From: Escherichia phage pinkbiff
Reading direction: 5' to 3' (one strand)
Sequence record: MN850603.1
Length of the DNA: 64,000 bases
Part shown: positions 2,787 through 63,617 of the stretch, one piece after another
Layout: the number at the start of each line of letters is the position of its first letter
Position numbering within the stretch: position 1 is the stretch's first letter
Made by a program: the position numbers and the translations under genes
The notes under the pieces: generated by a model
Databases searched by the model: none
Told to the model about the DNA's origin: nothing
What the model saw: the letters and a program-made list of their open reading frames with translations, nothing else

Positions 2787-3686
2787 ATGTCACAAGCTGA
2801 TTTGAGTTACAAAAATATCCTGAACCATGTTTTATCCGTTGGTGAACTGCGTACTACACGAACTGGAGATGTTATCTCTGCATTTGCTCCACCAAAATTT
2901 CGTTTTGATATGCGTACTGGTTTCCCACTCTTAACATCTAAACAGGTGTTTACACGGCAAGTTATTGGGGAAGCTTTATGGTTCCTGAATGGTGAGAATA
3001 AACTTGGTGAACTCCGTTACCGTACTTGGGGTGAAAATGATGGGGAACGTTGGACTATCTGGTCAGATGATTTTAAACGCTGGTTAAGCTCTAACTATTC
3101 TTCTGAGCAAGACTGGTTAGAAGATGCAGGTGGAAGAATCTACGGGGTTCAGTGGAGAAACTTTGAAGGTCATAATGGTTGTGTTGTAGACCAGTTAGAG
3201 ACCTTAGTAACGAAGATGAAAGGTGATATCACAGACCGCTACATGCTTGTTAATGCTTGGAATGCAGCAGATATTGCAGCTAACTCAATGGCTTTAGCAC
3301 CTTGTCATGTTCTGTTTCAGATTTATATCACTAACGAGGGTGAAGTTGACTTGCAATGGTATCAGCGTTCAGTAGACACCTTTTTAGGACTTCCGTTTAA
3401 TATTGCATCTTATGGTTTTATTCTGGAAGTTCTTTGCAAGATGACTGGATATACTCCACGGTACTTGATAGGTGTCTTTGGGGATACTCAGATTTATCAG
3501 AACCATATGAAGCAGGCTTATGAACTGATGAACAATAAAGAGTTCCATGCACCCACTTTTGAGATTGGTATGCATCTTAACACCCTAAGTGACTTAAAAC
3601 ACCTTACTGCAAGTGATTTTATTGGTGGTATTAGCAACTACCAACATGCAGGAAAGATTGAAGCACCTCTGTCAGTAGGTAAGTAA
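2787..3686 (+). CDS. thyA: thymidylate synthase
   Basis: 299 aa; catalytic-cysteine region ALAPCHVLFQIY and DTQIYQNHM match the ThyA family. Confidence 0.9.
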   Translation: MSQADLSYKNILNHVLSVGELRTTRTGDVISAFAPPKFRFDMRTGFPLLTSKQVFTRQVIGEALWFLNGENKLGELRYRTWGENDGERWTIWSDDFKRWLSSNYSSEQDWLEDAGGRIYGVQWRNFEGHNGCVVDQLETLVTKMKGDITDRYMLVNAWNAADIAANSMALAPCHVLFQIYITNEGEVDLQWYQRSVDTFLGLPFNIASYGFILEVLCKMTGYTPRYLIGVFGDTQIYQNHMKQAYELMNNKEFHAPTFEIGMHLNTLSDLKHLTASDFIGGISNYQHAGKIEAPLSVGK

Positions 3687-3735
3687 AAAAAAAAAAAAAA
3701 AAAAAAGGCTCCCGTAAAAAGGAGCCTTAAATTTT
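3687..3735. terminator. bidirectional rho-independent terminator preceded by an A21 homopolymer
   Basis: A21 run 3687-3707, then hairpin GGCTCCcgtaaaaaGGAGCC, then T-rich tract; lies between convergent thyA (+) and 3734..4105 (-). Confidence 0.6.
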
Positions 3736-4105
3736 ATTTTTCAGTATTCTTTGTGTTCTTTTCAGTAATAGCTTGGAGGGCTGATACTGATTGAGCCAGA
3801 TTATTCACACTGTCAGAGAATTTATCAAGAGTTTTGGTAAGTTTTGCGTTTTCACCCTTAACGTTCTCTAACTGAACTTTCTGGTTTTCCATCCCTAGCT
3901 GAATCAGCCTCATGTCAGACTGTAAATCACGAATAGCTGAGTAATTAGATTTGCTATAATTATCTAGCTGCTGTAATTTTGTTGTGACAGACACCTCTTG
4001 CTTACCACTTGAAACTTGCATCGTGGTATACATCCCAATAACACTAAAAATACCAACAACAATTGCACCAATATTATTTTTAAAAGCTTCCTCTATCCAC
4101 TTCAT
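3734..4105 (-). CDS. membrane-anchored coiled-coil protein
   Basis: N-terminal hydrophobic segment IGAIVVGIFSVIGMYTTM followed by heptad-like Q/L/N-rich region. Confidence 0.45.
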   Translation of the reverse strand: MKWIEEAFKNNIGAIVVGIFSVIGMYTTMQVSSGKQEVSVTTKLQQLDNYSKSNYSAIRDLQSDMRLIQLGMENQKVQLENVKGENAKLTKTLDKFSDSVNNLAQSVSALQAITEKNTKNTEK

Positions 4106-4300
4106 TTATTTCTCCCCCTTAAAAGCTTTTTCTAAGTTATCTACGAATTCATCATCAATAGGCGTGTCTGTCTTACCCGCAAGGTATCTTGCAAGCTTAA
4201 AGAACACTTTCTCAATCATGTATTCACTTAGAAGGGATAAAATGAGTTTCCAGAAGAAACTACCTAGATTTTTTAGGAGAATTGCTAGGATTGTAGGCAT
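4106..4300 (-). CDS. hypothetical small protein
   Basis: ORF track; contiguous with downstream gene start. Confidence 0.35.
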   Translation of the reverse strand: MPTILAILLKNLGSFFWKLILSLLSEYMIEKVFFKLARYLAGKTDTPIDDEFVDNLEKAFKGEK

Positions 4301-4379
4301 TTAATCACCTCATCAGCCAAGATGGTGAGAATACCTATAAAGAATATTAACACCATCTTAACAATCAGTCAATAAGGGA

Positions 4380-6713
4380 TTAAGCAGTCCTCACCCAAGC
4401 CATTAACTTATAGAACTGGTTAGTAACACTAAATGCTGAACCAGAACCTGTACCACCAGTGTTACCACTAACTGTATGACTGTGAGCACCAATACCAACA
4501 CTGTGAGCATGGTTACCAGCAGAAGCGGCAGTACCACTTACAGAGTGGGTGTGAGCACCGTTAGCATCGGTGTAACCCGGCCCTGTACCAATGTAACCAC
4601 CACCACCACCGGAATAGTGCTGTGAGTTCTGACCAATCCACGAAATAGAGTGGCTGTGGTTACCAGCAGATGAAGTAGAACCACTTACAGAGTGAGTGTG
4701 AGCACCAGTCGTGTTAGTGTTTTTTGTTCCGTAGTCAAACGATGAGGTAGTCGCAGAAAAACTGTGCGTGTGTGAAGGTAAGTTACCAACAGATAACGTT
4801 ACAGAATCTGAACCACCAGTTGTAGCAACATCTGAACCATTTGCTGCTGCAATTCTAATAGTCCTACCAACACCATTATTCAGATACGTCCAAGTTAGAC
4901 CAGGCAGTGCTGTATTAGGGTTAACATTACTGTTAAACCACGTCACAATACCTACTGGATAGATTTTGTTAAGGTCTGTAGAGTCACTTACTGCCTGTGC
5001 AATCTTCTGGTCAGTCTCTGCTTTAGTGTATGCACCAATAGCTGAAGGAGTTGGCTTCTGTGCAGTTGTGTACACCATAGCCCAACTTTTCTCAAAGCCA
5101 TCACCATCTCTTGATGTCCTATACCACATACCACCATTCGCCCATTTAAATCTTAGCTGCGCAGACGGTGTAGATGACTCAGACCCCTGATATAACTGAA
5201 GTAAAAGATTTGATGATGTAGCTCCAGTCTTGACATTATACAGCCCTGTCTTAGCATCCCAAGCAATAGCAGCATCATTATCACCTTCACCAGTTTTTCC
5301 TGCATACATGTATCTGGCGTTTGATGCTGAACCGGTATAGTACCTTTTATCTAGGTTAGTCCAGTCGGATGGTTGAACCTGCCCAGTGATTGTTACATTC
5401 TTATTAAACTGGATATAGTTCTCTCTAAGAGACAGTTCAGTACCTAACACCATCTCCCTGATAGTAAAGTTTCCTGAAGCATTAGTACCCATAAACCACT
5501 TTTTAGCACCATCAGAAGTATAACCTTGCAAGAACAAACCACCAGTATCATTTACCCCTTGAAGCCTAATACCCTCTCCATCAGCCTTAATAATCTGACC
5601 TTGAGAAAAAGTATTCTTAGCATTAATTTTTGCAAGAGTGCTTAATGTTGCTGCCGGAATATATCTAGAGTCAATGTTAGTCCAATCTGAAGGTTGAACT
5701 TGACCAGTTACAGTTAGTGTTTTATTGATATTAACACTTGTCCCTACAGTAATCTTGCCACTAGTTTTGTAGTTTTCTAGAGCTACGTTATCACCTTCGT
5801 TACTATTACCAATGTACCATCTGTTGACACCTGTGCTATCAATTGCTTTAATGTACAATGGTTGTGCAGCATTGGCATTCTGTAGCCTAATTGCTTCACC
5901 ATCTTTTTTGAAAACACTCAGTTGTTTGAATGTATTAGTGCCGTTAAAAGTGTTATTACCAGCCAACTGTGCAAATCTTTGATTAGCCAATGTTTGGGTA
6001 AAGTATCTATCATCTAGGTTAGACCAGTCTGAAGGTTTAACCTGACCAGTGATATTTAAATTCTTATTAGAATTAATACCTGCTGAATCCAATGTCAATG
6101 TCGTGCCAGAGGCTTCATTTGATAATCCAAGAACATTTGAAGTATTAAATCCAACATACCATTTATTAGTTCCAGATGGGTCTTGACCTCTAACATAGAG
6201 AGAAGGGCTATCAGTTGCACTTCTTAACAACAGTGCTTGACCATCTGCTACAATTGTCTGCCTAGACTTAAAAGTATTTAGTACTTCTAATCTAGCATAT
6301 CTAGCATCATTCTCAGCATTAGTTCTCATCCCAAGTTCATTAGGGCTTGGCTTATTAAGAGTATGATAAACAGTTGCAGACCTTGAAGCATCTGCAATAG
6401 TTAGTTTAAGACCATTTGCATTAATTTTAAAAGTCTTTAAAACATCCCCCATAGTAATCTCAGAAGAGCCTGTAGGGTCAAAGACTGCCTTACCACCATA
6501 AAGTAACTTAACAATCCCTAAGTCACCCGTCATAGTGCTACCAGCAATCTGGACAAACCTTTCTAGTTTAAAAGATGCTAAGAAGTCTTGATAGGTCATT
6601 CGACGGTCTTCATCACCCAGCATTTCAGGTCTCTTTTTAACCCTGACATGGAGGAGGTCATCTGAACGAATTGTATCAATTGAGTTTAATTCACTCAACT
6701 TGTAATCTGCCAT
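4380..6713 (-). CDS. tail fibre protein (long, repeat-containing)
   Basis: 777 aa; repeated internal modules (TGQVxPSDWxNLDxRY x3); C-terminal His-rich H-x-H-S repeats and ...WVRTA end shared with adjacent fibre gene; position distal to baseplate genes. Confidence 0.7.
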
Positions 6714-27462: not shown

Positions 27463-27612
27463 TGTACGTCAGAGACATACTGTATAAGTCTTCCTATAAA
27501 GTATAACTCTGTAAAAAAGCCCTGTCTAAAAATACTCTTCGGTAGCGAAAGGAAGAATACTTATAGCAGGGCATTATTATTATTTTAATTGAGAGAGAGT
27601 AAAATAACTTGG

Positions 27613-27685
27613 AGAATCCGAAGGGACTTGAACCCTTATAAACCTGTTTTGCAGACAGGCACATAGCCATTTCTGTCACGGATTC
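27613..27685 (-). tRNA. tRNA-Cys (GCA)
   Basis: hand-fold: acceptor gaatccg/cggattc, T-arm aaggg-acttgaa-ccctt, anticodon stem cctgt/acagg with loop reading GCA, discriminator U73. Confidence 0.7.
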
Positions 27686-27692
27686 AAATTGG

Positions 27693-27782
27693 AGGAAGAT
27701 ACCAGACTTGAACTGGTACACCGATTTCTCAGCTACTGGCAGTTTAGCAAACTGCTCCCTTACCTTTTAGGGTTAATCTTCC
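27693..27782 (-). tRNA. tRNA-Ser (GCU), long variable arm
   Basis: acceptor ggaagat/atcttcc, T-arm accag-acttgaa-ctggt, anticodon stem gcagt/actgc, about 90 nt. Confidence 0.65.
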
Positions 27783-27783
27783 A

Positions 27784-28509
27784 TTATTTCTGCAATGCGT
27801 TCTTCATTTCTGGTGTTGCAATAGAATCGATTACACCAGTTTTACAAGCATCATCAAACCAGTCTGGTAAGATACCTGCTAAGAACCCATTGATATTCGT
27901 TTTAAGGTACTCTGCAATAAGGGCAGCTTCTTCTTCAATCATCTGCACAACTTCATCTGCATAAGCTGTAATCTTTGAAATACCTTCATTAATCTTACTA
28001 ACAGCTTGGTTAGCTAAATCAGAAATAGTATCAAGACCTTTATCAATAGCATCCTGTAAGTCACTTAACACATCATTAACACCATCTAGTGTACTGTTAA
28101 TCGTATCCATAGCTTTTTGACCATACTCTGTAGCAACACCCATAATACCACTAAACGGTGTACAGCCAACTTGCTCTCCTGCTGCACCCATAACATTGGA
28201 ATAACCTTTTGCTACCTGCATACGTGATGAGAACTCATCAATGGACTTTTGACCGTAATCTGTCAGCGTCTTAGTAGTTGATGTAGTGCTTGTCAGACTC
28301 GTTGTAAAGCCATTAAGCAGAACTGTTGTAAGTCCAGCAGCAACAAGCTTATCCTTTACTGTAGGGTCTGATACAGAGCTAATAGAGTTTACAAGTGATG
28401 TAGAGGCAGCTACGGTTCCACCGAGAACTGCTGCACCAGTAATAAGGGGATTAGAAAACCCTCTACCGGTTTTTAAGAGATTGAAAATCTCCTTACCTTG
28501 TTCTGTCAT
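27784..28509 (-). CDS. hypothetical protein embedded in tRNA island
   Basis: ORF fits exactly between tRNA-Ser (ends 27782) and tRNA-Phe (starts 28538); ORF track extends to 28581 through the tRNA, so the internal ATG at 28509 (MTEQGKE) is preferred; S/T/G-rich. Confidence 0.35.
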   Translation of the reverse strand: MTEQGKEIFNLLKTGRGFSNPLITGAAVLGGTVAASTSLVNSISSVSDPTVKDKLVAAGLTTVLLNGFTTSLTSTTSTTKTLTDYGQKSIDEFSSRMQVAKGYSNVMGAAGEQVGCTPFSGIMGVATEYGQKAMDTINSTLDGVNDVLSDLQDAIDKGLDTISDLANQAVSKINEGISKITAYADEVVQMIEEEAALIAEYLKTNINGFLAGILPDWFDDACKTGVIDSIATPEMKNALQK

Positions 28510-28537
28510 CTCTTTCATTAAGCACCTTTGAAATTGG

Positions 28538-28611
28538 TAGTCCAGTGGGATTTGAACCCTATTCTCATGTTTTTCAGACACGCGCTTTAACCATATAAGC
28601 TACTTGGACTA
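28538..28611 (-). tRNA. tRNA-Phe (GAA), fold imperfect
   Basis: anticodon stem with loop CUGAAAA, D-arm GCUU/AAGC, T-loop motif present but T-stem and acceptor pairing ambiguous by hand. Confidence 0.45.
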
Positions 28612-28620
28612 TAAATTGGG

Positions 28621-28692
28621 GTGACCTACGGGATTTGAACCCGTATAGACCATGTTCACAGCATGGGTCATTACCATTTATGATAAGGCCAC
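28621..28692 (-). tRNA. tRNA-His (GUG)
   Basis: acceptor gtgacct/aggccac (one G-U), T-arm acggg-atttgaa-cccgt, anticodon stem ccatg/catgg, C73. Confidence 0.7.
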
Positions 28693-28726
28693 ATTTAAGG
28701 CCTCTCGTAAGAACCCTTAGAAGTGG

Positions 28727-28799
28727 CAGCGGCATAAGGATTTGAACCTTAATAGGACAGCTTCAGAGACTGCTGCATTGCCAGTTATGCTATACCGCT
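28727..28799 (-). tRNA. tRNA-Gln (CUG)
   Basis: encoded CCA, T-arm taagg-atttgaa-cctta, anticodon loop CUCUGAA, G73. Confidence 0.65.
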
Positions 28800-28807
28800 A
28801 AATTTGG

Positions 28808-55275: not shown

Positions 55276-57642
55276 TTAATCGTAAATTGTAGTTCCTTCT
55301 GGAACACACTTCACATCAAAACCTAAGAACTTACTCACTTCGATGGGTGACACTTTATTCCAATCTAAATGAGAAAGCAAGAAGTTTTCTTGTTTTCTTT
55401 TTGAAAGATAGTTTGTCAGTTTGATAACCATGCGGTCACCCGCTTTCTTAATCTTTTTGTACAGTTTTGTATCATTGTCAAGGCATGACTTCAAATCCTG
55501 AAGAACACTGATAGTGTAAGTGTATGCAAACGGTGCAGCAACGTATTGGATTTTACCAAACATTGCCTCTACAGCCTCTTCATTACCTTCTAGGAAGATA
55601 GTTTTGTTTGTGTCTCGTGAATAGCAATAACCACGAGAAATCTTCCTGTTATTGAACGTAAAGTTTCTGGCAATAATCCAACTGCTTGTCAGGTCTAGGA
55701 CACCATTCATATAGATACGTGTCATATACCTGTTGTGATTAATCCAGTGAACATCAGTTAAGCTGTCATTCAAGAGCTTCTCATCTACTTCAATCCAGTC
55801 TTCTGGTATCTTTTTCCAATTTGCTTTTCGGAAAACATAGACTGTCTTCCCTATAACATTAGCAACTGACTTAGCTACATCTTCTGGAGATGAGCAAAAA
55901 CATTTGCCATCAACTGTGTCGCCTACTGCCTTAATGTAAAGCTGAGGTTCCTCAATTGTGTCTAAGTCTTCTGACACCTCTGTGTATGAGGCTACAGACT
56001 CTGCTGGAACTGCTTTCCAGAGTTTTACAACACCCCTCACAGCTTCTTTACGCTGATAATGGTGTTCCTTATCAGACATCTTCACAATCTTTAACAAACT
56101 TTTATCAAGTTTATGTAGGTTGATTAAATCATCTAACTCTTTTTCAGTCGAGAATACAAACACAATACCATTGTATCTGTGGAACAGGCTTGACTCGTTA
56201 GCGTAGTCTCGACATGCACCACGCAGAATCTGATTGCGGCCTACAGTCTTCTCAGTGCCATTTTTATTACGACGGTCATTAATCACGAACAAAAACTGTT
56301 CAATTTGGCTTTTACGCATTGCACCAAAGATATTGAACATACTTGCCTCTTGAGTGTAGGAAAGTGCTGTTGCACGAATCTTACTCTCTAAAGAGTTGAA
56401 CTTGACATAAGCAACTGGATTATAAAGATAATCCACTTTAGGGATATTGTTCCCGTTCCTATCAACCTTGATATTACCTTTACCGTCACGTTCATAAATG
56501 ACTGAGCCGTCTTCTGCGTAGATAATCCCACGACGAATGTTTAGTAATTCTTCTTCCAGAGAATCAAGCTTAACACCTCCCCACTCTAGCTTTGGACACA
56601 CAGCATTAAACATCTCTCGTGAGTTCAAACGTAACTCAGCATAAGCCTGTGCAGCATCCATGAGTGTAGGTTGGCTATTAACTTTCTTGATAACATCCTT
56701 TGTAATTGCTTCAGTTATCTTTTTAGTAGCCTCAATGATAACATTTTTTGTCGTATCATTCATCTGCAATGCTTCACGAGAAGCTGCAATAGCAACTGAG
56801 CCAATAGGCATGTAGATGTTTACAAGGTCTACGCTCCTACGGAAAAATTCTGGCAAGACTTTGAAGAAATCATCACCAAGTAATGCTTCCATGTTAACAG
56901 GGTATGCAATGTTACCCATCACCACATTAAACTCTGTCCTGTTACCACTAGAACGCCAGCTTTGCTTATGAATCATGGCATCATAAACACCTTCTTCACG
57001 GGCAATGACGTTCATATCTGCTAATACATCGTCATACTCGATATTGCTTTCTGGTTTTACAGCAAAGTATGAGTATACGTGACCAGCTTCTTCAAAGAAT
57101 TTTGAGATACGATGGTCAGCAACTGCTACACGTACAGCTAAGCCATTAGGTTCCTTTGTTGGGTTGGTAGTCAGCTTAGTCACTTGAGGAATACCATTCT
57201 CAAGATAAACAGAGTACTTATTAACAACACCGTCAACATAGCTAGACACTGTGAATGACTGAGCAATTGCAAATGGAGATTTTGAGCCGATACCCATTGC
57301 ACCAATGTAATCATTAGAGTCATTCTTCGTAGAAGCCCCGTAGTTTAGGTACAAACTCATAACTTTATCATGAGTCAATCCAGTTCCAAAATCACGGACT
57401 TCAAAGTAAGGCTCAAAACGAGTAGGTAAATGCACATGGAACGGGATATTCTCTTTTCCAGCTTCTTTCTGAGCATCTACTGCGTTACATGACAGTTCAC
57501 GAATCACTGCCCTTTCTTTAAAGGTATATACACCAGAACTCAGAAGGCTGAACATTTCAGGTGTCATTGTAATCTGTGCTTGAGACGTCTCTAAAGAAGT
57601 TGAACTCTTAATCACTTCTGCGTGGTCGTTTACCATGCGCAT
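55276..57642 (-). CDS. rIIA: rIIA-like protein (GHKL ATPase-like N-terminus)
   Basis: 788 aa; N-terminal MTPEMFSLLSSGVYTFKERAVIRELSCNAVDAQ ... VRDFGTGL ... YIGAMGIGSKSPF parallels T4 rIIA. Confidence 0.75.
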   Translation of the reverse strand: MRMVNDHAEVIKSSTSLETSQAQITMTPEMFSLLSSGVYTFKERAVIRELSCNAVDAQKEAGKENIPFHVHLPTRFEPYFEVRDFGTGLTHDKVMSLYLNYGASTKNDSNDYIGAMGIGSKSPFAIAQSFTVSSYVDGVVNKYSVYLENGIPQVTKLTTNPTKEPNGLAVRVAVADHRISKFFEEAGHVYSYFAVKPESNIEYDDVLADMNVIAREEGVYDAMIHKQSWRSSGNRTEFNVVMGNIAYPVNMEALLGDDFFKVLPEFFRRSVDLVNIYMPIGSVAIAASREALQMNDTTKNVIIEATKKITEAITKDVIKKVNSQPTLMDAAQAYAELRLNSREMFNAVCPKLEWGGVKLDSLEEELLNIRRGIIYAEDGSVIYERDGKGNIKVDRNGNNIPKVDYLYNPVAYVKFNSLESKIRATALSYTQEASMFNIFGAMRKSQIEQFLFVINDRRNKNGTEKTVGRNQILRGACRDYANESSLFHRYNGIVFVFSTEKELDDLINLHKLDKSLLKIVKMSDKEHHYQRKEAVRGVVKLWKAVPAESVASYTEVSEDLDTIEEPQLYIKAVGDTVDGKCFCSSPEDVAKSVANVIGKTVYVFRKANWKKIPEDWIEVDEKLLNDSLTDVHWINHNRYMTRIYMNGVLDLTSSWIIARNFTFNNRKISRGYCYSRDTNKTIFLEGNEEAVEAMFGKIQYVAAPFAYTYTISVLQDLKSCLDNDTKLYKKIKKAGDRMVIKLTNYLSKRKQENFLLSHLDWNKVSPIEVSKFLGFDVKCVPEGTTIYD

Positions 57643-57670: not shown

Positions 57671-57847
57671 TTACTTATTAAACATTTTACCAGAACCACC
57701 ACACATAGGGCAACATCCTGCCCTTGTGTACCCCTCTCCATTACAGTAGTCACATTTTTTGTGCTCTGCAAAGTACTTACAAAGGAGGTAAACAAATACT
57801 GCTACACTACCAAGTGACAGTAAAATTTCTATCCAATATGCTTGCAT
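57671..57847 (-). CDS. small membrane zinc-ribbon protein (below ORF-track cutoff)
   Basis: 58 codons read by hand: MQAYWIEILLSLGSVAVFVYLLCKYFAEHKKCDYCNGEGYTRAGCCPMCGGSGKMFNK; hydrophobic N-terminus plus CxxC..CxxC. Confidence 0.3.
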   Translation of the reverse strand: MQAYWIEILLSLGSVAVFVYLLCKYFAEHKKCDYCNGEGYTRAGCCPMCGGSGKMFNK

Positions 57848-58164
57848 GACTCACCTCTCATATTCTTGTAAAGGATAAAGCTTCTGTCATGGACAATACT
57901 TGTAGACACTGCAAAGTTACTTTCAAGCATCTGTTTGTTTGGATTGTAGAAGCTCTCTTTAAACTCGTCAAGTGCAAATTGGTGATGTTGCGGAAGACCT
58001 TTTACGCAGACCTTTATTGTGATTGCTGCTGCGACCTTGCCAGTCAGTTCTTCTTTAGCTGCTACCAAGATTTTGTTAAGGAACTTATGACCATCTTCAG
58101 GCTTCTTGATGTTCTCCCAACGTTCTTCTAAGACAATGTTGATGTTCATCTCTTTGATTTTCAT
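57829..58164 (-). CDS. hypothetical protein
   Basis: 111 aa; ORF track. Confidence 0.45.
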   Translation of the reverse strand: MKIKEMNINIVLEERWENIKKPEDGHKFLNKILVAAKEELTGKVAAAITIKVCVKGLPQHHQFALDEFKESFYNPNKQMLESNFAVSTSIVHDRSFILYKNMRGESCKHIG

Positions 58165-58169
58165 AGTTT

Positions 58170-58200
58170 TCTCCAGAAATTAAAAAGGCTCCCGTAGGAG
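58170..58200 (-). terminator. rho-independent terminator after NAMPT-like gene
   Basis: minus-strand hairpin GGCTCCtacgGGAGCC followed by U5. Confidence 0.55.
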
Positions 58201-58217
58201 CCTCTTATCATATACTT

Positions 58218-59999
58218 TTAAAGCTGCTTGTCAATATTATTTCGAATATCCCCAAGAGTTGTGTAACCGAACTGCTCAGAGTCACTAAAGACTAAACGTA
58301 AGGCACAAGCTGGGTGGTCAAGTGCATCTGCAAAACTCTGGAATCCATAGCCATCTACAGCTTTCAGCTTATCACCATCCCACATGGGTGCTACACCACC
58401 AAAAGCAGATTTCTTAACACCACTATCTGTTTTAGGGTCTTTTGCAAGCATAATCTCTTTACCACCAATGCTTGCAAGAGTTGCTTTGACAGCAAATGCA
58501 AAGGTGTCACGAGTCATGTACTGGTAAGTGTAAGAACCTACACCAAACACTACGTTAGAGCTTGCAAAACCCATTTCATACAGACGCTTCAGGATTTCGT
58601 TTGCACGTTCCAGCGTGATAGAGTCACCATAGATAAGTCCGATATGCTCATCCAGTACCTTAAACCCTTTAGAGTTAATAGTTCCCCCAAAGATGTTGTA
58701 CAGTGTCTTAATAGCTCCATCAATCTCAGCTACAGGACGTGTTACAACGTTTGCAGAACCAACCATATAAGTGTTTTTCAACAGCACTGTATCAGCAACT
58801 TCAAAGTCTTCTCTGTCAACAACCATTTCGTAGCCTTCTGACAGTAGCCATCCAGCAATACCATAATTGATGTTTTCAAGCTTCATGTTCAGAACAGCAT
58901 TCAACATTGTGTCGCTGGCTTCAAGCTTGCTTAAGTGTTCGTAATAAGCCTTTTTAGCACATTCTAAGTGGATTGCTTTATAACCTGTGACAATATGTAC
59001 AGGGTCTCCAGAGTCAGGACGAATTACCAGTTTGCCATCACGTTCCATAATTTCTTTACGAAGTGCTGGTAAAATTTCTGACACAGTTCTCCAGAAGTTA
59101 TAAGTGTCTGAAACAACACTTGCAATACCAGTTGGGTAAGTTTCTGTTAAGAAACGACGGAAGGTTTGTAACTCACCTTTAAAGCGTCTTTCTTCTTCAA
59201 TCAACTCATTACCACCTTCCCAAGCAATGTTTGCACACATTACAGAATGTTCCGTGGCTGGTACAGAACTGCCAATATCAGAGATTGGGTAAGACTGCCC
59301 ATAGATTCGTTTAGCCGTGTATACAGCAGGGAAGCTATCAGTTCCTTTAAAGCTGGTTAAGTGGCCTACAGCATTGAATGCGTCATCAGTAAAGCCTGAC
59401 ATACCACGCATAGCAAAGTCATGGCACTGATAAGGTAAATGCAAGTCATTGTCACAAGTAAGGTCAGCCCACTTCTTACAGATACGCTTGTAGTGCAATG
59501 CAATAGTAGCAATGGTGCAAGCTTTCCAAATCTCAGCAGAGAAAGCATCCTCCAGATACCCTGCTACCCAATGGAAACCTGAAACAGTGTTCTGGAAGAC
59601 AATCATTGGGACACGCATCGGGACAACTGTGCCTTCTTCTACAGCGTATACTTCAACTGGTAGATAACCTAAGTCGTGAAGTGCTTCCCAATGCTCTCGA
59701 CCGATAGCATCTTTACCCAGAACACCATTCATAACTTCTAAGATTTTGTCAATTGCTTCTTTTTTATCACGTTCAAAGAAAGTGGCGTTCCAGTGGTCTA
59801 TCAAGTAATCTTTAACAAAACGTTGAATACCAAAAGCCACTACACCATCAATTGCTAAGGGGCTGTTAAACCATTTATCACTACGTGGTGTCAGGTTCAA
59901 CATAAGATATTGCGTAGCATCTGGATACTGATATATATGTGATGCCTTGTAAGCATCTGCATTAAGACCTGCTGGTACTGCGTAAAGTGACTTACTCAT
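58218..59999 (-). CDS. nadV: nicotinamide phosphoribosyltransferase-family protein (NadV/NAMPT-like; possibly Namat-type)
   Basis: 593 aa; type II phosphoribosyltransferase features of the NAMPT family; near a Prs-family gene. Confidence 0.75.
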   Translation of the reverse strand: MSKSLYAVPAGLNADAYKASHIYQYPDATQYLMLNLTPRSDKWFNSPLAIDGVVAFGIQRFVKDYLIDHWNATFFERDKKEAIDKILEVMNGVLGKDAIGREHWEALHDLGYLPVEVYAVEEGTVVPMRVPMIVFQNTVSGFHWVAGYLEDAFSAEIWKACTIATIALHYKRICKKWADLTCDNDLHLPYQCHDFAMRGMSGFTDDAFNAVGHLTSFKGTDSFPAVYTAKRIYGQSYPISDIGSSVPATEHSVMCANIAWEGGNELIEEERRFKGELQTFRRFLTETYPTGIASVVSDTYNFWRTVSEILPALRKEIMERDGKLVIRPDSGDPVHIVTGYKAIHLECAKKAYYEHLSKLEASDTMLNAVLNMKLENINYGIAGWLLSEGYEMVVDREDFEVADTVLLKNTYMVGSANVVTRPVAEIDGAIKTLYNIFGGTINSKGFKVLDEHIGLIYGDSITLERANEILKRLYEMGFASSNVVFGVGSYTYQYMTRDTFAFAVKATLASIGGKEIMLAKDPKTDSGVKKSAFGGVAPMWDGDKLKAVDGYGFQSFADALDHPACALRLVFSDSEQFGYTTLGDIRNNIDKQL

Positions 60000-60013
60000 A
60001 TTTTATCTCTCTC

Positions 60014-60505
60014 TTAGTTATGTCTTGCAAACTCACCATGAAGTTCTATTCGCTTTTTAATTACAGCTTCTTTTGCTTCTTCTACCGTTTTAAATCTTCC
60101 ACAAAAGTATTCTTTATGGTAAAGCATGACTCTTGCTTTGTAAAGACCTGTTTGTTTACAAAAACTTACACCCTTCACACCAGTTTTATTATTCTTGTAT
60201 ATACCCCTATTCCTCTGATTTTGTGACTTTGTGCTAAGTCTTAAATTCTCCAACTTATTATTAGATTTATCAAGGTCTATGTGGTCTATCTCATATCCAC
60301 TTGGTATCTCACCTCCAGACATAATCCATGCAATATTATGTGCATAGTACCTCTTCTTATTTATCTGGACTTGGATATAACCCTTCTTAGACCTTGTGCC
60401 AGCAACATTACCAGCAATAGCGGTATTGCAAAGGGTTACTTTCCAAATTAGTAAACCTGTCTCCGGTTCGTATATTAGGTATTTTTCGAAGTAACCCTTA
60501 TCCAT
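60014..60505 (-). CDS. HNH homing endonuclease with AP2 DNA-binding domain
   Basis: 163 aa; HNH_3-type core (GYEIDHIDLDKSNNKLENLRLSTKSQN) followed by AP2-like segment (GVKGVSF..GLYKARV..GRFKTVEEA); inserted between nadV-like and prs-like genes. Confidence 0.7.
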   Translation of the reverse strand: MDKGYFEKYLIYEPETGLLIWKVTLCNTAIAGNVAGTRSKKGYIQVQINKKRYYAHNIAWIMSGGEIPSGYEIDHIDLDKSNNKLENLRLSTKSQNQRNRGIYKNNKTGVKGVSFCKQTGLYKARVMLYHKEYFCGRFKTVEEAKEAVIKKRIELHGEFARHN

Positions 60506-60513
60506 TTTAATAC

Positions 60514-61410
60514 CTAATCCAAATTTGCTACAGTAACTTGACCATAATGTGTTAAGCCACGGTCTTTAGCTTCGCCTAAAGAGTTTGTAGTGTAAATATG
60601 GTCGATACCATTGTCAAGAAGGTTTTCAACATCTTTAGAGAAGATACCATGTGTTACATAAAGTTCCACACGTTTTGCACCTGCTTCACGAAGATGCTTA
60701 GCTGCTTCTATGAAGGTTCGACCACCATCACAGATATCATCCAGAATCATGACGGTTTTATCTGTCAAATCAACATCATCAAGGATTCGCATACCAGTAA
60801 TTTCACCAGTCTTAAGGTTACGCACCTTAGACATTGTGATATATGGTTTATCCACCTCTTTAGCGGTCTCTGCAACCTTCTTAGCAGCACCTGCATCTGG
60901 GGCTACTAAGTAATCAACCAGTGGGTCATTTGCATAGTGGACTGCAATCTCCTTTTGAGGAATACTCTGGAAGCAGTTAAACAGGTTATCTGGTACATAG
61001 CTGTGAGGGTCAACTGCACAGACTGCACCAAACCCCATTGCATTAACCTGTTTAGCAAAAACCTTCAAAGCTGCTGCATCACCTTTAAACATGTGACGGT
61101 CATATCGTGCATTTGGTAAGTAGTAAAAGATGACAGTCTTTAAGGCATAATCATGAGGAATCAAATCATCAATTGCTTCTTTAGCAAGTGCCACAGCAAA
61201 CAATGTGTCCTTGTCGTAGCCTTTTACAATCATAACCACATTGTTAATGGAGGATGCTGCATAAGCAGTAAAATCAACTAGCTCTTGTGAAAAGTGTCCA
61301 CCAATCTCACCAGAAGGGAATTGAATGATGTTAAACTCTTCTTCATGAGTTCCTTTAGTTGGTGAATGAATTGTAACACGGATAGATGTTTTCATAGTTT
61401 TCTCTCTCAA
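60514..61410 (-). CDS. prs: ribose-phosphate pyrophosphokinase-family protein (Prs-like; possibly Adps-type)
   Basis: 298 aa; PRPP-binding loop VMILDDICDGGRTF and overall Prs-like layout. Confidence 0.75.
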   Translation of the reverse strand: MREKTMKTSIRVTIHSPTKGTHEEEFNIIQFPSGEIGGHFSQELVDFTAYAASSINNVVMIVKGYDKDTLFAVALAKEAIDDLIPHDYALKTVIFYYLPNARYDRHMFKGDAAALKVFAKQVNAMGFGAVCAVDPHSYVPDNLFNCFQSIPQKEIAVHYANDPLVDYLVAPDAGAAKKVAETAKEVDKPYITMSKVRNLKTGEITGMRILDDVDLTDKTVMILDDICDGGRTFIEAAKHLREAGAKRVELYVTHGIFSKDVENLLDNGIDHIYTTNSLGEAKDRGLTHYGQVTVANLD

Positions 61411-61685
61411 TCAAAAGTTACGTTTGTTACTGCCATTGCAGATTTGCATTTTACAGGGTCTACAACGTGATAAAGTACACTACAGTTACCTGTGCTGTCT
61501 GGCACAGGCTTTACCCATTGCTGCTTGACAGTTGGTTCTCCTAAGTCTTTGCAGGAACCATCTGTATAATTATTTACCATCTCAAGTGCAATTGGCTCTG
61601 GAATATGACCACGTATCATGTACATTTCACAACCATTGCCGCCTTCACTGAGTAATGGTAAAATCTCCCACTTTTCTTTAGCCAT
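61407..61685 (-). CDS. hypothetical protein
   Basis: 92 aa; ORF track. Confidence 0.4.
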   Translation of the reverse strand: MAKEKWEILPLLSEGGNGCEMYMIRGHIPEPIALEMVNNYTDGSCKDLGEPTVKQQWVKPVPDSTGNCSVLYHVVDPVKCKSAMAVTNVTFD

Positions 61686-62193
61686 TATAAGTTGCCCTAT
61701 AAACTGTCTCGAACTTCAACAGGAGAGATATTGCCAAATCTGTATAGTTGTTGTCAAGCACATCTGGCATATTATTTTTGATATATTTCTCTTGCTCTTC
61801 GTAGGTCATCTTAGGGGTAATTAAAAGACTATCCCCTTGCTTCTGGTTATCAAGTTTAGTCTGGATAAACCAGTTTGCACAGTGATGCTCACCACCCTTT
61901 GTAACAGGTTTGTGGTGTCCTAATGTGAAGGATTGACTACCTGTGTATCTGCAAAGTTTATTGAGTATTGTAATGGTGTTCTTCACAACAAAACATTCAT
62001 ACAGGTTATCTACGGTGTAGTGTGGGTAATACCGGAATAATGCTCTTTCACGGGAACTCTCACGATTCCAGAGAATCATGTGATTGGAGTTAGAAGGGTC
62101 GTATTGGTGGGAATCAATGAACTCTTGACGTTCCTCAAAGCTGAGTCTTAGAACTGACATTGCAGCCGAACGTTTTAGGTTTGATAGATACAT
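61678..62193 (-). CDS. hypothetical protein (possible His-Me finger/HNH-like nuclease)
   Basis: 171 aa; segment GHHKPVTKGGEHHCANW resembles an HNH core; weak. Confidence 0.35.
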   Translation of the reverse strand: MYLSNLKRSAAMSVLRLSFEERQEFIDSHQYDPSNSNHMILWNRESSRERALFRYYPHYTVDNLYECFVVKNTITILNKLCRYTGSQSFTLGHHKPVTKGGEHHCANWFIQTKLDNQKQGDSLLITPKMTYEEQEKYIKNNMPDVLDNNYTDLAISLLLKFETVYRATYNG

Positions 62194-63131: not shown

Positions 63132-63617
63132 TTACTCGGCTCTCCACTGACAATCACCTTGCCACCCATACTCTTTTCTCCATAGGTTTTGGTTATCAGA
63201 ACCACGATATGGCTTAACTGTTGGTTTAGATGAATCATACTTACCATCAATCACCACGTCAACATATTTCATCACATCTAGGTGAATTTTTTCGTGTAAC
63301 TGAAAACCTGTCCAGAGCCAGATAGACTTCTCTGGGTAAACAGTTTTAATACGTTTACATATATTGGTAACCTCTTGAATATTTCTATCATCCAGAGGTT
63401 CTCCACCAAGTATCGACAACCCACCGATGGCCTCATCATCCATTAACTTAATGATTCCGTATAGGTTTGCATAAGTGAACACTTTACCAGCATTAAACTT
63501 CCAAGACTCCCTGTTAAAACAGCCTTCACAGTGATGTTTACAGCCAGCTACGAAGAGGCTTACACGAACCCCTTCACCATTAGCTGTGTCAAATGGTCGA
63601 ATCTCCATGTAATTCAT
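63132..63617 (-). CDS. nrdG: anaerobic ribonucleotide reductase activating protein (radical SAM)
   Basis: 161 aa; N-terminal ANGEGVRVSLFVAGCKHHCEGCFN cysteine cluster and Gly-rich SAM motif typical of NrdG. Confidence 0.8.
   Translation of the reverse strand: MNYMEIRPFDTANGEGVRVSLFVAGCKHHCEGCFNRESWKFNAGKVFTYANLYGIIKLMDDEAIGGLSILGGEPLDDRNIQEVTNICKRIKTVYPEKSIWLWTGFQLHEKIHLDVMKYVDVVIDGKYDSSKPTVKPYRGSDNQNLWRKEYGWQGDCQWRAE

What the first reader, a model, noticed from the sequence alone, without database searches (positions are those of the whole stretch)
58218..61410. NAMPT-like and Prs-like genes together: NAD salvage or NARP1-type NAD-reconstitution counter-defence
A NAMPT-family enzyme (593 aa, larger than typical NadV) and a PRPP-synthetase-family enzyme are encoded on the same strand within 3.2 kb. 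In phages this pairing has been described both as classical NAD salvage and as the NARP1 pathway, in which Prs-like Adps and NAMPT-like Namat rebuild NAD from ADP-ribose and nicotinamide after NAD-depleting immune systems fire. Sequence alone cannot tell the two apart here.
Basis: partly seen in the sequence, partly recalled or inferred. Interest (0 to 1): 0.55.

Follow-up and report, generated by a model that had tools for sequence, protein, structure and literature searches.

The report
Known phage NAD-rebuilding operon (NARP1)
These two genes are near-identical copies of the phage gene pair in which the NARP1 pathway was discovered, which rebuilds NAD+ from ADP-ribose and nicotinamide after bacterial immune systems destroy it, so this is a correct but already described finding.

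Summary
On the minus strand lie a 593-aa NAMPT-family gene (58218-59999) and a Prs-family gene. The Prs-family gene most likely starts at the ATG at 61395 (60514-61395, 293 aa), not at the TTG at 61410.

The window is a Felixounavirus. The two proteins are 97% and 77% identical to genes 80 and 79 of Escherichia phage Bas63 (JohannRWettstein). Deleting that pair, and the ADPR-PP seen in infected cells, are what defined NARP1.

Sequence does separate NARP1 from classical salvage here:
- The NAMPT-like protein carries the published Namat motif GSXΦXΦXΦTRD (GSYTYQYMTRD, residues 488-498) and the Bas63-type clamp loop (K42-W43).
- NARP2-type Nampts have GGGLLQ..(D/T)RD at the same place.
- The Prs-like protein keeps the Adps acceptor and catalytic residues, lacks the Prs C-terminal regulatory helices, and scores far below every equivalog-level Prs model.
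- The best structural match is the SPβL1 Namat crystal structure.

Verdict: an already known system, a NARP1 adps-namat operon, here split by a mobile HNH gene. Minor open points are an undescribed, confidently folded insertion of about 85 residues in Namat and a mosaic 5' half of adps. Interest is low.

The parts
60514..61395 (-). adps: Prs-fold ADP-ribose pyrophosphokinase (293 aa from the ATG at 61395; the ORF listing extends it to a TTG at 61410)
   Evidence: It is 77% identical over 293 aa to Bas63_0079. PHROG 619 E=1.8e-96. It passes only the broad TIGR01251 subfamily model (122.5 vs 113 bits) and fails every equivalog-level Prs model it matched, e.g. 105 vs 296 bits. In an NJ tree it groups with Bas63, ICP1, SPβL1 and FADO Adps, away from E. 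coli Prs.
60712..60741 (-). Adps D219-D220 and PP loop C222-D223-G-G-R-T227-F228 (LDDICDGGRTF)
   Evidence: [quoted passage not shown] The segment is identical in Bas63 Adps.
60826..60828 (-). Adps catalytic lysine K190 (motif K-V-R-N-L-K-T-G-E-I)
   Evidence: It aligns with ICP1 Adps K185. The K185A substitution there abolishes ADPR-PP formation.
60014..60505 (-). Free-standing HNH-AP2 homing endonuclease gene inserted between adps and namat; a mobile passenger, not part of the pathway
   Evidence: Pfam HNH_3 E=1.6e-19 and AP2 E=4.7e-4; PHROG 99 E=3.5e-69. It is absent from Bas63, where a 45-nt spacer with a GC hairpin lies instead. It is present in only 60 phage records, against 258 that match the region.
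58218..59999 (-). namat: NAMPT-fold nicotinamide ADP-ribose transferase (593 aa)
   Evidence: It is 97% identical (577/593, no gaps) to Bas63_0080. The best PDB sequence hits are 9w5w and 9w5x, E~1e-128. In the AF2 model (pLDDT 93.4) the best structural match is 9w5x/9w5w 'Namat', TM 0.95 normalised to the target. H. ducreyi NadV and human NAMPT rank below it.
58506..58538 (-). Namat selectivity-clamp helix motif GSYTYQYMTRD (residues 488-498)
   Evidence: [quoted passage not shown] KVP40-like Va3 and Miro Nampts have GGGLLQQLDRD and GGGLLQEVTRD at this place. H. ducreyi NadV has GAQTYQRNTRD.
59871..59876 (-). Namat selectivity-clamp loop residues K42-W43
   Evidence: K42 aligns with SPβL1 R40. 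[quoted passage not shown] Bas63 Namat'. The loop is identical in Bas63.
58719..58973 (-). Insertion of about 85 residues (343-427) in Namat relative to SPβL1, ICP1 and FADO Namat and to Nampts
   Evidence: The alignment gap is seen. In the full-length model it is a compact α/β subdomain with pLDDT mostly 90 or higher. It has no significant Pfam match. Its length ranges from 12 to 95 aa among 48 homologs. Its function is unknown.
58183..58206 (-). Terminator-like hairpin immediately after the namat stop codon
   Evidence: Consensus scan: 10-bp stem with 5 GC pairs, followed by a T-run. This is a pattern match only.

Best explanation
The locus is a NARP1 (NAD+ reconstitution pathway 1) counter-defence operon of a Felixounavirus.

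Proposed mechanism: when a host NADase-type immune system (SIR2-HerA, DSR1/2, type I Thoeris, SEFIR and the like) cleaves NAD+ into ADP-ribose and nicotinamide, Adps (60514-61395) transfers the β,γ-pyrophosphate of ATP onto the terminal ribose of ADPR to give ADPR-pyrophosphate. Namat (58218-59999) then condenses ADPR-PP with nicotinamide to regenerate NAD+ directly, without host NMN-adenylylating enzymes.

Shown here: orthology to the experimentally defined Bas63 pair, and presence of the published diagnostic residues and fold.

Inferred by homology: the enzymatic activities and the anti-defence phenotype of this particular phage.

The HNH gene between the two genes is a selfish homing endonuclease. 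It occupies the intergenic spacer and is probably co-transcribed, but it has no role in the chemistry.
For: 1. The window is a Felixounavirus: 96% nt identity over the 3.7-kb region to VpaE1_ev78, LF82P9 and others.
2. Namat is 97% and Adps 77% identical to Bas63_0080 and Bas63_0079, with the same flanking genes: two small ORFs upstream, then NrdG beyond them, and rIIA downstream.
3. In Bas63, deleting genes 79-80 gave about 20-fold fewer plaques on SIR2-HerA cells and deeper NAD+ depletion. Protection persisted in a ΔpncCΔnadR host. ADPR-PP (m/z 720.010) appeared only with wild-type phage plus the defence system (bioRxiv 10.1101/2024.02.11.579819).
4. Namat signature GSYTYQYMTRD and clamp-loop residues K42-W43 are present. 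The catalytic core D15, Y17, F195, R198, D221, H251, R327 and D329 is conserved.
5. Adps residues F26, R97, H131, D167, K190, D219, D220 and D223 match ICP1 F18, R87, H121, D161, K185, D212, D213 and D216. The protein also ends before the Prs α11-α12 region.
6. The Prs-like protein scores below every equivalog-level NCBIfam Prs model it matched and is only 24% identical to E. coli Prs.
7. The best structural neighbour is the Namat crystal structure 9w5x/9w5w.
8. The two genes are on the same strand, 508 nt apart. A purine-rich tract precedes the adps and namat start codons. No strong terminator lies before the end of namat.
Against: - No enzyme assay or infection experiment exists for this phage.
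- The in-vitro biochemistry was done on SPβL1 and ICP1 homologs, which are 46% (Namat) and about 30% (Adps) identical to these proteins, because the Bas63 protein did not purify well.
- The Adps here differs from the tested Bas63 protein by 23% of residues, concentrated in the N-terminal half, which contributes adenine-binding residues. ICP1 F92 is Met in both Felixounavirus alleles.
- SPβL1 Namat retains PRPP-dependent NMN synthesis in vitro, so some classical salvage activity is not excluded.
- The HNH insertion replaces the Bas63 spacer and could alter namat expression.
Confidence: 0.93

Rival explanations
1. Classical NAD+ salvage. The Prs-like enzyme makes PRPP from ribose-5-phosphate. 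The NAMPT-like enzyme makes NMN from PRPP and nicotinamide. Host NadR or PncC-dependent routes finish the job and boost NAD+ supply during infection.
For: Pfam, PHROG, NCBIfam and GenBank annotations all name the proteins this way. [quoted passage not shown]
Against: - The Bas63 orthologs still protected in a ΔpncCΔnadR host, and the infected cells accumulated ADPR-PP.
- The purified SPβL1 enzyme gave no product in the Prs-type assay but did convert ADPR and ATP.
- The Prs-like protein fails all equivalog Prs cut-offs and lacks the Prs C-terminal module.
- The Namat adenine clamp is present.
Confidence: 0.04
2. NARP2-type pathway. A true Nampt makes NMN, and a phage Nmnat (as in KVP40 NadV/NatV) adenylates it to NAD+. 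The Prs-like enzyme merely supplies PRPP.
For: The NAMPT fold and catalytic core are shared between Namat and Nampt.
Against: - The protein is only 29-30% identical to KVP40-like Va3 and Miro Nampts, against 45-48% to characterised Namats. It groups with Namats in an NJ tree.
- It lacks the Nampt-type GGGLLQ motif.
- In the published survey, NARP2 Nampts occur in phages without Adps.
- No gene annotated as an adenylyltransferase or Nudix is present in the Bas63 genome.
Confidence: 0.02
3. The operon is functionally impaired in this phage because the HNH insertion uncouples the two genes, or because the divergent adps allele is inactive.
For: The HNH gene replaces the Bas63 spacer. The 5' 500 nt of adps is only 64-77% identical to Bas63.
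Against: - Both ORFs are full length, with all catalytic residues intact.
- The HNH-containing arrangement is conserved at 90-100% nt identity in 60 phage genomes.
- The window-type adps allele is the majority allele, at 80% identity or more in about 157 of 227 records. This argues for purifying selection.
- The spacers are only 8 and 14 nt, and no strong internal terminator was found.
Confidence: 0.03

Closest known systems
NARP1 operon of Escherichia phage Bas63 / JohannRWettstein (genes bas63_0079 adps and bas63_0080 namat; Osterman et al., bioRxiv 10.1101/2024.02.11.579819)
   Same: Same genus (Felixounavirus), same genomic position between the NrdG region and rIIA, and the same gene lengths (293 and 593 aa). 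Namat is 97% and Adps 77% identical. The Namat clamp motifs and both Namat insertions are the same, with only four substitutions in the larger insertion.
   Different: The window has a 492-nt HNH-AP2 homing-endonuclease gene in place of the 45-nt hairpin-containing spacer. The 5' half of adps is a different allele (64-77% nt identity). The small ORF bas63_0081 downstream of namat is missing.
SPβL1 Adps/Namat (biochemically characterised; Namat crystal structures 9w5w and 9w5x, PMC12774641)
   Same: Same fold (TM 0.95 normalised to the target). The same catalytic residues and the GSXΦXΦXΦTRD clamp motif. The adps-namat gene order is the same.
   Different: Identity is 46% (Namat) and 30% (Adps). 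The clamp loop uses K42-W43 instead of R40. The window Namat has extra segments of about 19 and 85 residues that are absent from the crystal structure.
Vibrio phage ICP1 Adps (structures and mutagenesis, PMC13586617)
   Same: The acceptor and catalytic residues and the DDICDG PP-loop motif are conserved. The Prs α11-α12 module is lost in both.
   Different: Identity is 31%. ICP1 F92 is Met102 here, and F223 is Glu230. The ICP1 Adps structure did not turn up in the PDB copy I searched, so there was no structural comparison.
NARP2 (KVP40 NadV Nampt + NatV Nmnat) and cellular NadV/NAMPT (H. ducreyi NadV 9ke8, human NAMPT)
   Same: NAMPT fold, nicotinamide pocket and catalytic His.
   Different: These use PRPP, lack the aromatic adenine clamp (GGGLLQ.. 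or GAQTYQRN in place of GSYTYQYM), and have no Adps partner. They are 29-30% identical (KVP40-like Va3 and Miro).
Housekeeping ribose-phosphate diphosphokinase (E. coli Prs)
   Same: PRPS-like two-domain fold, with conserved Arg, His, Asp and the DD motif.
   Different: Identity is 24%. The catalytic loop is K-x-R-N-x-x-T-G-E-I instead of KRRPRxN. The C-terminal regulatory helices are absent. Scores are below all equivalog cut-offs.
NARP1-AP (Adps + Macro-domain phosphatase Adpp + Namat; bioRxiv 10.64898/2026.01.28.702374)
   Same: A third gene sits between or next to adps and namat.
   Different: The extra gene here is an HNH endonuclease, not a Macro-domain phosphatase. No Macro domain was detected in the six ORFs scanned from 57829 to 62193.

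Membership tests
NARP1 (Adps + Namat) | The Prs-fold protein belongs to the Adps clade rather than to cellular Prs | tested here: met
   77% identity to Bas63 Adps, which was a seed of the published clade. It is 27-31% identical to ICP1, SPβL1 and FADO Adps, against 24% to E. coli Prs, and groups with the Adps proteins in an NJ tree. It fails the equivalog Prs models. The tree is small and has a single Prs outgroup.
NARP1 (Adps + Namat) | Adps acceptor and catalytic residues (ICP1 F18, R87, H121, D161, K185, D212, D213, D216; PP loop) | tested here: met
   F26, R97, H131, D167, K190, D219, D220 and D223 are all conserved, with PP loop CDGGRT. Only F92 (Met) and F223 (Glu) differ.
NARP1 (Adps + Namat) | Adps lacks the C-terminal α11-α12 regulatory and filament module of PRPS | tested here: met
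   The alignment ends about 11 residues before the E. coli Prs C-terminus, with gaps through the preceding segment. The feature is described.
NARP1 (Adps + Namat) | Namat keeps the Nampt-like catalytic core (SPβL1 D13, Y15, F189, R192, D215, catalytic His, R306, D308) | tested here: met
   D15, Y17, F195, R198, D221, H251, R327 and D329 are present, and are invariant in a 48-sequence alignment.
NARP1 (Adps + Namat) | [quoted passage not shown] | tested here: met
   GSYTYQYMTRD, residues 488-498, with Y490 and Y494.
NARP1 (Adps + Namat) | The selectivity-clamp loop supplies a stacking residue (Arg at the third position, or Lys/Tyr followed by the stacking residue) | tested here: met
   TPRSDK42W43, identical to Bas63 Namat, which the paper cites as the Lys-type example.
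NARP1 (Adps + Namat) | adps and namat are co-located (within 10 genes, usually adjacent, adps first) | tested here: met
   Same strand, adps upstream, separated by one HNH gene (508 nt).
NARP1 (Adps + Namat) | Enzymatic activities: ADPR + ATP gives ADPR-PP; ADPR-PP + nicotinamide gives NAD+ | not testable with these tools
   Shown for SPβL1, ICP1 and P. foliorum homologs, and ADPR-PP was detected in Bas63-infected cells. Not measured for this phage.
NARP1 (Adps + Namat) | Protects the phage against NAD+-depleting defence systems | not testable with these tools
   Shown by deletion in Bas63 (SIR2-HerA) and FADO (DSR2). Inferred here from orthology.
Housekeeping Prs (ribose-phosphate diphosphokinase) | Scores above the curated cut-off of an equivalog-level Prs model | tested here: not met
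   The best equivalog, NF002095, scores 105 bits against a cut-off of 296. Only the broad TIGR01251 subfamily model is passed, at 122.5 against 113.
NARP2 (Nampt + Nmnat) | Nampt-type clamp-equivalent region without the adenine clamp (GGGLLQ..RD) | tested here: not met
   The window has GSYTYQYMTRD. Va3 and Miro have GGGLLQQLDRD and GGGLLQEVTRD.
NARP2 (Nampt + Nmnat) | A phage-encoded Nmnat partner | not tested
   None is annotated in the Bas63 genome. The 64-kb window was not scanned ORF by ORF with profile models.
NARP1-AP | A Macro-domain ADPR-1''-phosphate phosphatase in the operon | tested here: not met
   Pfam scans of the six ORFs between 57829 and 62193 found no Macro domain. The feature is described.

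The most novel reading that the evidence does not exclude
The confidently folded subdomain of about 85 residues (343-427), together with the smaller insertion of about 19 residues, is found in Felixounavirus-type Namat but is absent from the crystallised SPβL1 enzyme. It is not mentioned in the Namat structure paper, which I searched for insertion terms. It might give the enzyme an extra property, such as docking of Adps to channel the hydrolysis-prone ADPR-PP, allosteric control, or escape from a host inhibitor. That would make this a functional variant of NARP1. A further possibility is that HNH homing at the adps-namat junction drives the allele mosaicism of the operon.
Probability: 0.12. 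Interest if true: 0.35.

Novelty: already known. Interest (0 to 1): 0.15.

Why it matters
The result corrects the standard database labels, 'ribose-phosphate pyrophosphokinase' and 'nicotinamide phosphoribosyltransferase', to their demonstrated roles as Adps and Namat of NARP1. It predicts that this phage resists NAD+-depleting defences such as SIR2-HerA, DSR, type I Thoeris and SEFIR. That is useful for predicting host range and choosing phages for therapy. It adds nothing conceptually new. The pathway, its founding example in the same phage genus, its structures and its diagnostic motifs are all published.

Tried and rejected
- I guessed GenBank accessions to find Bas63. MZ501111, MZ501085 and MZ501080 were other BASEL phages. 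The alphabetical order of names then led to MZ501086.
- I fetched 50 kb of KVP40 hoping to get NadV. The gene is not in that stretch, so I used KVP40-like Va3 and Klebsiella phage Miro Nampts as NARP2-type comparators instead.
- The PDB sequence search for the Adps returned only cellular and archaeal Prs, the best being 4twb at E=3.5e-17. No Adps structure turned up in the copy I searched.
- The 9ke8 hit turned out to be H. ducreyi NadV rather than a phage Namat.
- I tried to characterise the 85-residue Namat insertion on its own. The best Pfam hit was only DUF4528 at E=0.034, far below its cut-off. A single-sequence AF2 model was poor (pLDDT 62), so I ran no fold search on it.
- I tested whether the divergent adps 5' allele is linked to the HNH insertion. 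It is not. The allele occurs in about 157 records and the HNH gene in 60, and Citrobacter phage Moogle has the HNH gene with the other allele.
- I considered NARP3 (PnuC + NadR-like) and the RyDEP and Macro-domain extensions of NARP1. None matches the genes at this locus.
Full report
**1. What is at the coordinates**

The ORF listing shows three tightly packed ORFs on the minus strand.
- A Prs-like ORF at 60514-61410.
- A 163-aa ORF at 60014-60505.
- A 593-aa ORF at 58218-59999.

Pfam and PHROGs assign them as follows.
- The 593-aa protein belongs to NAPRTase/NAMPT_N (E=6.9e-35; PHROG 448 E=2.5e-201).
- The Prs-like protein belongs to Pribosyltran/Pribosyl_synth (E=8e-12 and 4.7e-10; PHROG 619 E=1.8e-96).
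- The middle ORF is an HNH_3 + AP2 homing endonuclease (E=1.6e-19; PHROG 99 E=3.5e-69).

The finding omitted the HNH gene.

The TTG start at 61410 is probably a product of the mechanical ORF rule. It overlaps the TGA stop of the upstream 92-aa ORF. The ATG at 61395 is preceded by a GAGAGAGA tract like the one in front of the namat ATG. That ATG gives 293 aa, the length annotated in Bas63.

**2. Where the window comes from**

Megablast of 58000-61700 finds 258 phage records, nearly all Felixounavirus-type phages of Escherichia, Salmonella, Shigella and Citrobacter. The best match is 96% identical over the whole query. The surroundings fit this genus: rIIA at 55276-57642, an NrdG-like ORF at 63132-63617, and 26 tRNA genes at 27.6-32.8 kb.

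**3. Relation to the founding NARP1 example**

The NARP1 paper (bioRxiv 10.1101/2024.02.11.579819) started from 'operon 79-80' of BASEL phage Bas63 (JohannRWettstein). It reported the following.
- Deleting the two genes gave about 20-fold fewer plaques on SIR2-HerA cells.
- NAD+ depletion was deeper with the deletion mutant.
- Protection persisted in a ΔpncCΔnadR host.
- ADPR-pyrophosphate appeared only with wild-type phage plus the defence system.

I retrieved Bas63 (MZ501086, a Felixounavirus). The window's 593-aa protein is 577/593 (97%) identical, without gaps, to Bas63_0080. The 293-aa protein is 227/293 (77%) identical to Bas63_0079. The flanking genes are the same: two small ORFs of PHROGs 3500 and 4726 upstream, with NrdG beyond them, and rIIA downstream. 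These are orthologs of the type NARP1 genes.

**4. Diagnostic residues in Namat**

The Namat structure paper (PMC12774641) defines a 'selectivity clamp' that recognises the adenine of ADPR-PP. It has two parts.
- A loop whose third residue is Arg, or Lys/Tyr followed by the stacking residue. Bas63 is cited as the Lys type.

In my alignment the window protein has GSYTYQYMTRD (488-498) and TPRSDK42W43. Other sequences at the helix motif compare as follows.

| Protein | Type | Motif |
|---|---|---|
| Window | candidate Namat | GSYTYQYMTRD |
| SPβL1 | Namat | GSFTYQYNTRD |
| ICP1 | Namat | GSYTYQYVTRD |
| Va3 (KVP40-like) | NARP2-type Nampt | GGGLLQQLDRD |
| Miro | NARP2-type Nampt | GGGLLQEVTRD |
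| H. ducreyi NadV | cellular Nampt | GAQTYQRNTRD |

The shared catalytic core (D15, Y17, F195, R198, D221, H251, R327, D329) is intact.

An AlphaFold2 model built from a 48-sequence alignment reached pLDDT 93.4. Its best PDB matches are 9w5x and 9w5w, 'Crystal structure of Namat' (E~1e-52, TM 0.95 normalised to the target). H. ducreyi NadV and human NAMPT rank lower.

**5. Diagnostic residues in Adps**

The Adps paper (PMC13586617) lists these ICP1 features.
- F18, R87 and F92 bind the adenine of ADPR.
- H121, D161, D212, D213 and D216 bind the acceptor.
- K185 is the catalytic lysine.
- The PP loop (C215-S220) binds the ATP phosphates.
- The PRPS α11-α12 regulatory module is lost.

The window protein has F26, R97, H131, D167, K190, D219, D220, D223 and LDDICDGGRTF, and it ends before the Prs C-terminal helices. 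Only F92 (Met) and F223 (Glu) differ, and they differ in the same way in Bas63.

Against NCBIfam, the protein passes only the broad TIGR01251 subfamily model (122.5 against 113 bits). It falls far below every equivalog Prs model, for example 105 against 296. Small NJ trees place both proteins with the characterised Adps and Namat sequences, away from E. coli Prs and the NARP2-type Nampts. These trees are crude, but at 77-97% identity to Bas63 the placement is not in doubt.

**6. Mechanism**

- Step 2: Namat couples ADPR-PP to nicotinamide with release of PPi, giving NAD+.

The substrates are exactly the products of SIR2- and TIR-type NADase effectors, so the phage undoes the depletion. For this window the chemistry and the phenotype are inferred by homology. 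The orthology, the motifs and the fold are shown here.

Classical salvage is a minor residual possibility, because Namat keeps some PRPP activity in vitro. NARP2 is unsupported.

**7. What differs from Bas63**

(a) *HNH gene.* In Bas63 a 45-nt spacer with a GGGGCTTGAAAGCCCC hairpin separates the genes. In the window the HNH ORF occupies that place, leaving spacers of 8 and 14 nt. This HNH gene is found in 60 phage records at 90-100% identity, once per genome, against 258 records that match the region. That patchy distribution is typical of a homing endonuclease.

(b) *Identity profile.* Nucleotide identity to Bas63 is about 95% in general. It drops to 64-77% over the first 500 nt or so of adps, and to 72-83% over the first 150 nt or so of namat next to the HNH gene. 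The window-type adps 5' allele is the majority allele: about 157 of 227 records are 80% identical or more, and about 70 are 60-80% identical. It is not strictly linked to the HNH gene.

(c) *Missing ORF.* The small ORF bas63_0081 is absent downstream of namat.

A terminator-like hairpin follows namat at 58206-58183.

**8. Why the protein is 593 aa**

Relative to SPβL1, FADO and ICP1 Namat there are two insertions, at 258-276 and 343-427. The larger one is modelled with high confidence as a compact α/β subdomain. It has no significant Pfam match. Its length varies from 12 to 95 residues among 48 homologs that all carry the Namat motif. It is identical in length in Bas63, with only four substitutions there. 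A term search of the Namat structure paper for insertion-related words found no mention of it. Its role is unknown. This is the only element with any residual novelty.

**9. Verdict**

This is an already known system, a NARP1 adps-namat operon orthologous to the founding example, here carrying a mobile HNH gene. The claim that sequence cannot decide between the alternatives is not.

Noticed in passing
window 60014-60505 (-): An HNH-AP2 homing endonuclease gene is inserted exactly in the adps-namat spacer. It is present in 60 phage records and absent from Bas63 and most other relatives. The first 150 nt or so of namat next to it are unusually divergent from Bas63 (72-83% against about 95%), as expected for a homing-associated conversion or immunity tract.
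   Followed up: partly
window 60940-61440 (-), 5' half of adps: This is a mosaic segment. It is 64-77% nt identical to Bas63, while the flanks are about 95%. Two allele groups exist among Felixounaviruses: about 157 records of the window type and about 70 of a more distant type. They are not strictly linked to the HNH gene.
   Followed up: partly
window 58719-58973 (-) and 59172-59228 (-), Namat residues 343-427 and 258-276: Two insertions relative to the crystallised SPβL1 Namat. The larger is a confidently predicted α/β subdomain with no significant Pfam match. Insertion length at this site ranges from 12 to 95 aa among Namat homologs.
   Followed up: partly
L014 (Klebsiella michiganensis contig DAHJTQ010000013.1) 3211-6491: The closest non-phage homologs (Klebsiella, Cronobacter, Kosakonia and others; 496 aa) carry the Namat motif GSFTYQYNTRD. 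In K. michiganensis the gene follows a 289-aa Adps-like gene that is 47% identical to the window Adps over 188 aa. Next to it is a divergently transcribed Nudix + WHD_NrtR regulator, which belongs to the ADP-ribose-responsive NrtR family (from my own knowledge). This suggests an ADPR-induced chromosomal ADPR-to-NAD+ recycling module. The NARP1 paper only hints at such housekeeping use.
   Followed up: partly
L006 (Vibrio phage ICP1_2006_A) about 2960-4460: The Namat reading frame of this ICP1 isolate has an in-frame stop after about 28 codons, and is annotated as a 37-aa ORF plus a shortened nadV. This could be a sequencing error or a disrupted allele.
   Followed up: no
window 61678-62193 (-) and 61407-61685 (-): Two conserved small ORFs (PHROG 3500 and 4726, function unknown) lie immediately upstream of adps, after a terminator-like hairpin at 62233-62211, so they are probably co-transcribed with it. 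The 171-aa protein has weak HNH-like and DUF7167 matches (E about 4e-4 to 5e-3).
   Followed up: no
window 58171 region, between namat and the 111-aa ORF at 57829-58164: The Bas63 ORF bas63_0081 (345 nt) is absent from the window. A strong promoter-like site (TTGACA-16-TATGAT, 58234-58207) overlaps the end of namat.
   Followed up: no
window 27610-32782 (-): A cluster of 26 tRNA genes, typical of Felixounavirus genomes.
   Followed up: no
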